From the IMG/VR virus record IMGVR_UViG_2690316231_000013: DNA of 11,659 bases; one strand, written 5' to 3'. Source of the stretch: a virus (taxonomy: Duplodnaviria > Heunggongvirae > Uroviricota > Caudoviricetes). The notes below the pieces were generated by a model, which was given only the letters and a program-made list of their open reading frames with translations, ran no database searches and was not told where the DNA came from. Shown in pieces: positions 6,149 through 6,708 of this stretch. The translations under genes were made by a program, and so were the position numbers. The stretch's first letter is position 1. The number at the start of each line of letters is the position of its first letter.

Positions 6149-6708
6149 ATGAAGAAGATAATATTATTAGCCATGATTATTGGTTCTTTAACAGGTTGCG
6201 CTAGTGTGCCACCATTGAATTTTTCAACACCTAACGTGGGAGTTAGCCAGAAAAAATAGATGCTGAAATTAAGTCATTAACGGTATCACTTGCTCGTCCA
6301 GATGAGCAGAAAGGGGATATCACTGCTGGTATGGAGGCTATAACTCCAATTTGGCGTGAATCTTTGCAGGAAGCACTCGACCGAATGACTATTTTTCGTG
6401 ATAGTTCACCAAATACGGTTAGCTTAAATGTTAAAGTGTTGGCTCTTGACGTTCCTGCTTTTGGTGTTTCAATGACAACTAAAGCAATTGCAAGGTATGA
6501 AATAATCAACCGTGCGAATGGTGATATTATATATACGCAGGATATTGAGTCTACCGGTACTGTTCCAGCCAGTTACGCATTCTACGGTATTGTTCGAGCA
6601 CGCGAATCTGTTAATCGCGCGGTGCAAAACAACATAACGCAGTTCTTGCAAGCATTAGAAAGTGTTGATCTTTCTCGTCCAATGTTTCCTGTTAGGGTAG
6701 CTAAATGA
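6149..6708 (+). pseudogene. Lipoprotein of unknown function, about 186 aa if intact; split by a 1-nt frameshift in an A6 tract
   Basis: ATG at 6149 with AAGG RBS; signal peptide plus lipobox MKKIILLAMIIGSLTGC. Frame stops at TAG 6257-6259 right after AAAAAA (6251-6256). The +1-offset frame is open from 6247 and continues 149 codons to the TGA at 6706-6708 (the track starts it only at ATG 6331). Adding one A gives a continuous ...GVSQKKIDAEIKSLTVSLARPDEQ... ORF. Confidence 0.6.

What the first reader, a model, noticed from the sequence alone, without database searches (positions are those of the whole stretch)
6247..6262. Frameshift in a poly-A tract splits the first lipoprotein gene
The lipoprotein frame (signal peptide plus lipobox) ends at TAG 6257-6259 immediately after AAAAAA (6251-6256). 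The adjacent frame is open from 6247 and runs 149 more codons to a stop that overlaps the next gene's start. One extra A would fuse them into a single ~186-aa lipoprotein. This could be a decayed gene, an assembly error at a homopolymer, or a slippage-prone switch.
Basis: seen in the sequence. Interest (0 to 1): 0.6.

Follow-up and report, generated by a model that had tools for sequence, protein, structure and literature searches.

The report
One-base deletion breaks a prophage lipoprotein gene
A prophage-borne outer-membrane lipoprotein gene in this E. coli contig has lost one A from a run of seven and is now an ordinary frameshifted pseudogene, not a genetic switch.

Summary
A6 lies at 6251-6256, TAG at 6257-6259, and the adjacent frame is open from 6247 to the stop at 6706-6708. 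Adding one A gives a 186-aa lipoprotein identical to WP_000720581.1 (PGAP name "YajG family lipoprotein").

The window is the whole draft contig CYFT01000089.1, from a defective DLP12-like lambdoid prophage of E. coli.

- All 280 complete RefSeq E. coli genomes that carry the gene have A7.
- The intact protein is on at least 1000 public contigs, and full-length homologues (60-87% identity) exist in other Proteobacteria.
- Klebsiella and Bordetella encode the same Lys-Lys as AAG AAA, so the tract is incidental.
- No A8 product is on record, and no frameshift-stimulating RNA structure follows the site.
- A6 recurs rarely. Many cases come from noisy long-read assemblies with several homopolymer deletions. 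The window and a few other clean contigs carry it as their only indel.
- The gene is also broken elsewhere by nonsense mutations and IS insertions.

Verdict: a loss-of-function one-base deletion at a weak homopolymer hotspot. It is most likely real. An isolated sequencing error cannot be excluded without the reads. Low interest.

The parts
6149..6708 (+). Whole frameshifted lipoprotein gene, a pseudogene allele of WP_000720581.1. The intact allele is 561 nt and 186 aa.
   Evidence: adding one A restores a product identical to the annotated 186-aa protein in L001 and L002.
6149..6259 (+). 5' fragment of 36 codons plus TAG. It holds the signal peptide and lipobox LTGC (Cys17). Ala at +2 implies outer-membrane sorting, by the Lol +2 rule from general knowledge.
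   Evidence: The exact 36-aa product is on 13 Logan contigs.
6251..6256 (+). A6 tract. It is A7 in the intact allele, so this is the site of the 1-bp deletion.
   Evidence: L001 and L002 have A7; 280 of 280 complete genomes have A7; it is the only indel in 6 kb against L001.
6247..6708 (+). 3' part of the gene, now in the -1 frame relative to the start. It encodes residues 37-186 of the mature LptE-like domain.
   Evidence: (conserved in all homologues; confident model with a lipoprotein alpha/beta fold).
6705..7157 (+). Second cassette gene: a 150-aa glycine-zipper lipoprotein whose start overlaps the first gene's stop (ATGA). It probably depends on translational coupling and may suffer polarity in the A6 allele (inferred).
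   Evidence: weak glycine-zipper hits to PF05433 and PF13488, below cutoff; PHROG 13877; the pair is conserved in Klebsiella and Bordetella.
6092..6119 (+). Promoter-like site (GTGATA-16-TATAAT, 10 of 12) about 30 nt upstream of the gene start. This is a weak consensus match only.
   Evidence: The number of such sites in the region is not above the shuffle expectation.
5541..5663 (+). Remnant of ren abutting a truncated bet/recT. This is the deletion junction of the defective prophage and the left boundary of the low-GC moron (about 5600-7250).
   Evidence: annotation of L001 transferred by the 351-nt offset. One search shows the GC dip to 0.32-0.41.

Best explanation
The window carries a loss-of-function allele of a prophage-borne outer-membrane lipoprotein gene. 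One A was lost from an A7 run (codons Lys35-Lys36-Ile37, AAA AAA ATA), probably by replication slippage. Translation now ends at TAG after 36 residues. What remains is a signal peptide plus about 19 mature residues, so the folded LptE-like domain is not made. The gene is a dispensable accessory gene (a moron between ren and ninB/ybcN) in a prophage that is already defective, so the lesion is tolerated. The deletion, the identity of the intact allele and its rarity are shown. That the mutation arose by slippage in vivo, that it is neutral decay, and that the translationally coupled downstream glycine-zipper lipoprotein gene may be under-expressed are inferred.
For: The relatives differ from the window by exactly one base in the module, inside the A-run, and encode the 186-aa protein. 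All 280 complete RefSeq E. coli genomes with the gene have A7: 278 match the 81-mer exactly and 2 carry a nearby CAG>TAG change. The intact protein is on at least 1000 contigs against 13 for the A6-specific peptide. The window is otherwise clean: the A-run deletion is its only indel in 6,002 aligned bases against L001, a stretch that includes about ten other runs of 6 or more bases. The same A6 allele is present in other clean read sets. L020 and L026 are 100% identical to the window over 2.5-2.6 kb. L008, with its relative L009, and L007 carry it on different flanking haplotypes. The gene also carries other independent inactivating lesions elsewhere: Q34* in L004, L012 and two complete genomes, a C>T stop at 6307 in L010, and IS3-family insertions in L003 and L006. 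This fits relaxed selection. The prophage lacks its immunity and replication region (annotation).
Against: No reads are available, so this instance of A6 cannot be told apart from an isolated consensus error. Many other A6 contigs are clearly error-ridden, which shows that this tract is also an error hotspot. The protein family is strongly conserved, so the gene is not generally dispensable in every setting.
Confidence: 0.74

Rival explanations
1. Sequencing or assembly error: the isolate really has A7 and the draft contig dropped one A in the homopolymer.
For:: A6 appears in many public contigs (L009, L021-L025, L027) that also carry several other homopolymer deletions (T7>T6, G6>G5, T6>T5). 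That is the signature of noisy long-read data, so this tract is a known place for such errors. No complete RefSeq genome has A6.
Against: The window has no other indel in 6 kb against its nearest relative, although that stretch holds about ten other runs of 6-7 bases. Two other clean contigs from different read sets (L020, L026) have exactly the same allele. The sequencing platform is unknown, and the fragmented 11.7-kb contig only suggests short-read data (my inference).
Confidence: 0.16
2. Contingency (phase-variation) switch: the A-run changes length reversibly at high frequency and turns the surface lipoprotein, and by polarity its glycine-zipper partner, on and off.
For: A6 occurs on at least three flanking backgrounds and an A5 product is on 2 contigs, so the tract is at least a weak mutational hotspot. 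The product is a predicted envelope lipoprotein, a class that is often phase-variable in other bacteria (general knowledge).
Against: All 280 complete genomes have A7. No A8 product and no in-frame length variants are on record. Only deletions are seen, and most are in noisy assemblies. The tract is 7 bases, below the length typical of homopolymer switches (general knowledge). Orthologues break the run with AAG AAA. The gene is also lost through irreversible lesions such as stops and IS insertions.
Confidence: 0.05
3. Recoding: the A6 allele still yields full-length protein by -1 ribosomal slippage of tRNA-Lys on G AAA AAA before the UAG stop, or by transcriptional slippage. The product would have exactly the wild-type sequence.
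For: Read directly from the sequence: a -1 shift on the last AAA leads into ATA GAT..., which reproduces ...SQKKIDA.... A stop codon in the A site and an SD-like GGGAG (6238-6242) 8 nt upstream are features known to favour slippage in E. coli (general knowledge of dnaX and 'shifty stops').
Against: There is no downstream stimulatory structure (z = -1.3). The heptamer is imperfect, with G at the first position. No homologue has the split arrangement. The GGGAG is a by-product of the codons for Val-Gly-Val and is absent from orthologues. Any such leak is expected to be a few percent at most and not selected for.
Confidence: 0.05

Closest known systems
Intact allele WP_000720581.1 (186 aa; PGAP 'YajG family lipoprotein', formerly mislabelled 'UDP-N-acetylglucosamine acyltransferase'; PHROG 12521), found in E. 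coli DLP12-like and lambdoid prophages and in Escherichia phage PhiR30_1
   Same: The DNA is identical apart from the single A. The position is the same, between ren and ybcN/ninB, and the same overlapping 150-aa partner gene follows.
   Different: The window has A6 instead of A7, so only a 36-residue N-terminal peptide can be made in frame.
Homopolymer frameshift pseudogenes in cryptic prophages, which PGAP would annotate as 'frameshifted'
   Same: It is a single-base indel in a short mononucleotide run inside an accessory gene of a degraded prophage. Neighbouring genes in relatives show similar decay, with internal stops and partial genes.
   Different: Nothing distinguishes it in kind.
Slipped-strand contingency loci, such as the homopolymer switches of Neisseria, Haemophilus and Campylobacter surface genes (general knowledge)
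   Same: A homopolymer lies early in the coding sequence of an envelope protein, and a frameshift gives an off state.
   Different: The tract is short (7 bases), is monomorphic in 280 of 280 complete genomes, is not conserved in orthologues, has no +1 variants on record, and the gene also has irreversible knock-outs.
E. coli YajG (b0434, Pfam PF03923 Lipoprotein_16) and the LptE / CsgG / PelC / Cj1090c class of outer-membrane lipoproteins
   Same: It is a lipoprotein of about 190 aa with a two-helix, four-strand alpha/beta fold. Foldseek gives probability 1.0 and TM 0.45-0.6 to Cj1090c, CC_3750, XCC0632, CsgG and LptE. The hhalign match to YajG is weak, at 78% probability.
   Different: None of 44 family members hits PF03923, whereas true YajG scores 177 bits. 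Identity to the structural matches is 8-15%. The function of either family is unknown.

Membership tests
Frameshifted pseudogene of a known gene | An intact allele exists that differs only by the indel, and its product is conserved across the junction | tested here: met
   one A is the only indel; full-length homologues, K36 invariant.
Phase-variable contingency locus (homopolymer switch) | Tract length is polymorphic among and within strains, with on and off lengths both common | tested here: not met
   All 280 complete genomes have A7. The A6 peptide is on 13 contigs against at least 1000 for the intact protein, and A8 is on none.
Phase-variable contingency locus (homopolymer switch) | The tract is long enough for high-rate slippage and is maintained in orthologues | tested here: not met
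   The tract is 7 bases. Klebsiella and Bordetella orthologues encode Lys-Lys as AAG AAA, and Luteimonas has CAG AAA.
Phase-variable contingency locus (homopolymer switch) | Measured reversible switching rate well above the background mutation rate | not testable with these tools
   This needs fluctuation or reporter assays, or deep sequencing of cultures.
Programmed -1 ribosomal frameshift site (dnaX type) | Slippery heptamer X XXY YYZ in the zero frame | tested here: inconclusive
   The sequence is G AAA AAA followed by UAG. The A-site and single-tRNA slip is perfect, but the P-site re-pairing is imperfect.
Programmed -1 ribosomal frameshift site (dnaX type) | Downstream stimulatory RNA structure | tested here: not met
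   Folding 6257-6336 gives -19.5 kcal/mol and z = -1.3, and 22 of 200 shuffles fold as well.
Programmed -1 ribosomal frameshift site (dnaX type) | The two-frame arrangement is conserved among homologues | tested here: not met
   All listed homologues are single ORFs of about 185-190 aa with 90-100% coverage.
YajG family (Pfam PF03923 Lipoprotein_16) | Match to the family profile above the gathering score | tested here: not met
   There is no hit at E<=0.1 for the fused protein, and none of 44 members hits at E<=1. E. coli YajG itself scores 176.8 bits.
YajG family (Pfam PF03923 Lipoprotein_16) | Remote profile similarity to E. coli YajG | tested here: inconclusive
   hhalign gives probability 77.9% over 119 columns, partly from the signal peptide.
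Bacterial lipoprotein (Lol-sorted) | Signal peptide with a lipobox and an invariant Cys | tested here: met
   LTGC with Cys17, which is invariant in 44 homologues. 26 of 44 members hit LPAM_1.
PHROG 12521 (phage protein family of unknown function) | Full-length profile match | tested here: met
   E = 1.3e-123 over profile positions 1-178 of 178.

The most novel reading that the evidence does not exclude
The A7 tract is a real recurrent hotspot that natural populations use as a low-frequency off-switch for a two-lipoprotein envelope cassette. The cassette is an LptE-like lipoprotein plus a glycine-zipper lipoprotein, carried by lambdoid prophages. The A6 allele would stay slightly leaky through -1 slippage of tRNA-Lys before the UAG, which restores the exact wild-type protein. 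Loss would then be selected, for example to escape a phage or host factor that recognises the lipoprotein, rather than being neutral decay.
Probability: 0.06. Interest if true: 0.45.

Novelty: already known. Interest (0 to 1): 0.12.

Why it matters
It matters little. The result tells an annotator to mark 6149-6708 as one frameshifted pseudogene rather than two small ORFs. It also shows that this A-run, and the G6 run in the next gene, are places where noisy long-read assemblies routinely drop a base. The gene family itself is more interesting than the frameshift. It is an uncharacterised, strongly conserved two-lipoprotein cassette that moves between prophages and chromosomes of distant Proteobacteria, and it still carries a wrong enzyme name in many records.

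Tried and rejected
- **Pfam, NCBIfam and PADLOC scans.** Scans of the fused protein found no family. The only NCBIfam hit, IglE at E 0.039, is far below its cutoff.
- **Structure jobs.** I redid it with P0002 as the first row. The afdb50 fold library was not available, so the model could not be compared with the AlphaFold model of YajG.
- **Literature.** Searches for the protein accession and for the assembly or contig accessions found nothing, so the sequencing platform of the source assembly remains unknown.
- **Frameshift stimulator.** A search for a frameshift-stimulating RNA structure downstream of the site was negative.
- **Promoter and terminator scan.** It gave counts no higher than shuffled sequence.
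- **Independent origins.** I considered counting independent origins of A6 from flanking haplotypes. The module is nearly identical in all E. coli, so a single origin followed by recombination cannot be separated from recurrence.
- **The two non-exact genomes.** I considered whether the two complete genomes that did not match the A7 81-mer were A8. They are the CAG>TAG allele.

Full report
**1. The observation**

The sequence reads ...GTT AGC CAG AAA AAA TAG at 6241-6259, with AAAAAA at 6251-6256. The ORF from ATG 6149 encodes a 36-residue peptide with a typical lipoprotein signal peptide and the lipobox LTGC (Cys17).

The neighbouring frame is closed by TAG at 6244-6246 and open from 6247 to TGA at 6706-6708. 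That stop overlaps the ATG at 6705 of the next gene. Adding one A gives a 186-aa product.

**2. Where the window comes from**

The window is the entire 11,659-bp contig CYFT01000089.1 of assembly GCA_001285945.1. Locus L011 equals window 331-11659.

It is a lambdoid, DLP12-like prophage of E. coli. Its gene order is:
- integrase and excisionase;
- exo and a truncated bet/recT abutting a ren remnant, so the immunity and replication region is missing;
- a low-GC insert at about 5600-7250;
- ybcN (ninB), ninE, ybcO, rusA, ylcG, quuD, a porin gene, essD and rrrD.

This order rests and on the L001 annotation. The split gene is the first of two overlapping lipoprotein genes in the low-GC insert.

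**3. What the intact gene looks like**

The 30 best E. coli matches to 5650-7300 all span 1652 bases against the 1651-base query. In L001 and L002 the only difference is A7 instead of A6. The annotated CDS (561 nt, WP_000720581.1, 'YajG family lipoprotein' or 'hypothetical protein') translates to exactly the protein I built by adding one A.

Over 6,002 aligned bases to L001, the window has three mismatches and this single indel.

**4. How common each allele is**

I used 80- and 81-nt queries centred on the run, so that only an exact run length gives at least 99% identity.
- 280 of 5,426 complete RefSeq E. coli genomes carry the gene.
- None has A6.
- 278 match the A7 81-mer exactly.
- The other two carry A7 with a CAG>TAG nonsense change one codon upstream.

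In the 15-billion-protein collection the counts are as follows:
- the A6-specific 36-aa peptide is on 13;
- the A5 product is on 2;
- the A8 product and the in-frame A4 and A10 products are on none.

**5. Is the A6 real?**

I compared every A6 carrier with the intact module. L021-L025, L027 and the GenBank genome L009 also carry other homopolymer deletions (T7>T6, G6>G5, T6>T5). That is the signature of noisy long-read data, so in those contigs A6 is probably an artefact.

The window, L020 and L026 have the A-run deletion as their only indel. L020 and L026 are 100% identical to the window over 2.5-2.6 kb. L008, a clean draft, shares A6 and its haplotype with L009. L007 carries A6 on a third haplotype.

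The window's other homopolymers of 6-7 bases in the aligned 6 kb all agree with the reference. I conclude that A6 exists as a real, rare allele and that the window's copy is most likely real. Only the reads can prove this.

**6. Switch or decay?**

Several results argue against a switch.
- The tract is monomorphic in complete genomes (point 4).
- Only shortened variants are on record (point 4).
- The tract is short, at 7 bases.
- It is not conserved. Klebsiella oxytoca and Bordetella encode the same Lys-Lys as AAG AAA, and Luteimonas has CAG AAA.

The gene is also inactivated in irreversible ways elsewhere:
- Q34* in L004, L012 and two complete genomes;
- a C>T stop at window position 6307 in L010;
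- IS3-family insertions in L003 and L006;
- a left-side rearrangement in L005.

Further truncated products are present on tens to hundreds of contigs. This is the pattern of an accessory gene under relaxed selection in some lineages, with the A-run as one modest hotspot.

**7. Recoding**

A -1 slip of tRNA-Lys on the last AAA before UAG would restore the wild-type sequence exactly, and a GGGAG lies 8 nt upstream (read directly from the sequence). Against this:
- there is no downstream structure (z = -1.3);
- the heptamer is imperfect;
- no homologue has a split gene.

Any leak would be incidental.

**8. What the protein is**

Homologues of 185-190 aa at 60-87% identity occur in Klebsiella, Edaphovirga, Bordetella, Xanthomonas, Lysobacter, Stenotrophomonas and Luteimonas. 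Mean column identity is 69%, and Cys17 and Lys36 are invariant.

The two-gene cassette (186 aa plus an overlapping 150 aa gene) is also found outside prophages in Klebsiella and Bordetella. It is present, 100% identical, in the isolated phage PhiR30_1.

No Pfam, NCBIfam or PADLOC family matches. It is PHROG 12521, of unknown function.

An AlphaFold2 model (pLDDT 84.9) has two helices packed on a four-stranded sheet. It matches the LptE / CsgG / PelC / Cj1090c / XCC0632 class of outer-membrane lipoproteins at TM 0.45-0.6 and 8-15% identity.

The link to true YajG is remote. hhalign gives 78% probability, while YajG itself scores 177 bits on PF03923 and this family scores nothing.

YajG and the glycine-zipper lipoprotein SlyB were both reported as LptDE-associated, surface-exposed lipoproteins (PMC12065857). 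That is only a lead for the function of this cassette.

**9. Consequences of the lesion (inferred)**

The A6 allele makes at most a 36-residue prolipoprotein fragment.

The 125-codon internal ORF from ATG 6331 has no signal peptide, and I see no Shine-Dalgarno sequence at a workable distance upstream (direct reading).

About 450 nt now go untranslated ahead of the coupled second gene. This may lower its expression through lost translational coupling or Rho-dependent polarity.

**10. Verdict**

This is an ordinary single-base deletion in a short homopolymer that produces a pseudogene of an annotated, widespread prophage lipoprotein. My estimates are real mutation about 0.74, isolated sequencing error about 0.16, and switch or recoding about 0.05 each. 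It is not novel, and interest is low.

Noticed in passing
window 6838-6843 (G6 run in the second lipoprotein gene, 6705-7157): This run is shortened to G5 or G4 in several noisy assemblies (L009, L022, L023), which splits the 150-aa gene into 54 + 88 aa. It is intact in the window. It is a second place where long-read assemblies create false frameshifts.
   Followed up: partly
window 6149-6708 and homologous loci L003-L006, L010, L012: The same gene is knocked out independently in other strains: CAG>TAG at window 6248 (Q34*; L004, L012, NZ_CP029057.1, NZ_CP087564.1, the two complete genomes both from chicken), C>T at 6307 (a stop; L010), IS3-family insertion (L003, L006; its 52-aa product is on 86 contigs), and a rearrangement (L005). 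A 51-aa and 107-aa product pair on 93 and 175 contigs marks a further lesion that I did not characterise.
   Followed up: partly
window 6149-7157; L013 4001-5010; L015 4001-5013: The two-gene lipoprotein cassette (an LptE-like 186 aa protein plus a glycine-zipper 150 aa protein, with overlapping stop and start) is strongly conserved (60-87% identity) between gamma- and beta-Proteobacteria. It sits in prophages, in an isolated phage and in non-phage chromosomal islands. It has no Pfam family and is widely mislabelled 'UDP-N-acetylglucosamine acyltransferase'. Its function is unknown.
   Followed up: partly
window about 5070-5663: A truncated bet/recT is joined directly to a ren remnant at about 5541, so the whole immunity and replication region of the lambdoid prophage is deleted. 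Left of about 5070 the window, with its 428-aa integrase and intact exo, differs from the L001-type prophage, which shares the right arm at 99.9% identity. This is a recombination mosaic.
   Followed up: partly
window 5701-5907 (-) and 6004-6144 (+): Two small ORFs lie in the low-GC insert upstream of the lipoprotein genes. One is a 68-aa hydrophobic, probably membrane, protein and the other is 46 aa. Both are called as genes on many related contigs but match no Pfam, PHROG or PADLOC family.
   Followed up: partly
window 9410-10492 (-): The prophage porin gene (nmpC/ompC-like) looks intact here: the 360-aa product is called on L011. PGAP marks it as a pseudogene with an internal stop in L001. 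L001 differs from all the other loci at window position 10255, with A instead of C.
   Followed up: no
window 6238-6242: A Shine-Dalgarno-like GGGAG lies 8 nt upstream of the A-run. It comes from the codons GTG GGA GTT and is absent from orthologues, which have GTT GGC GTT. It is probably incidental, but it is the kind of element that enhances -1 slippage in dnaX (general knowledge).
   Followed up: partly
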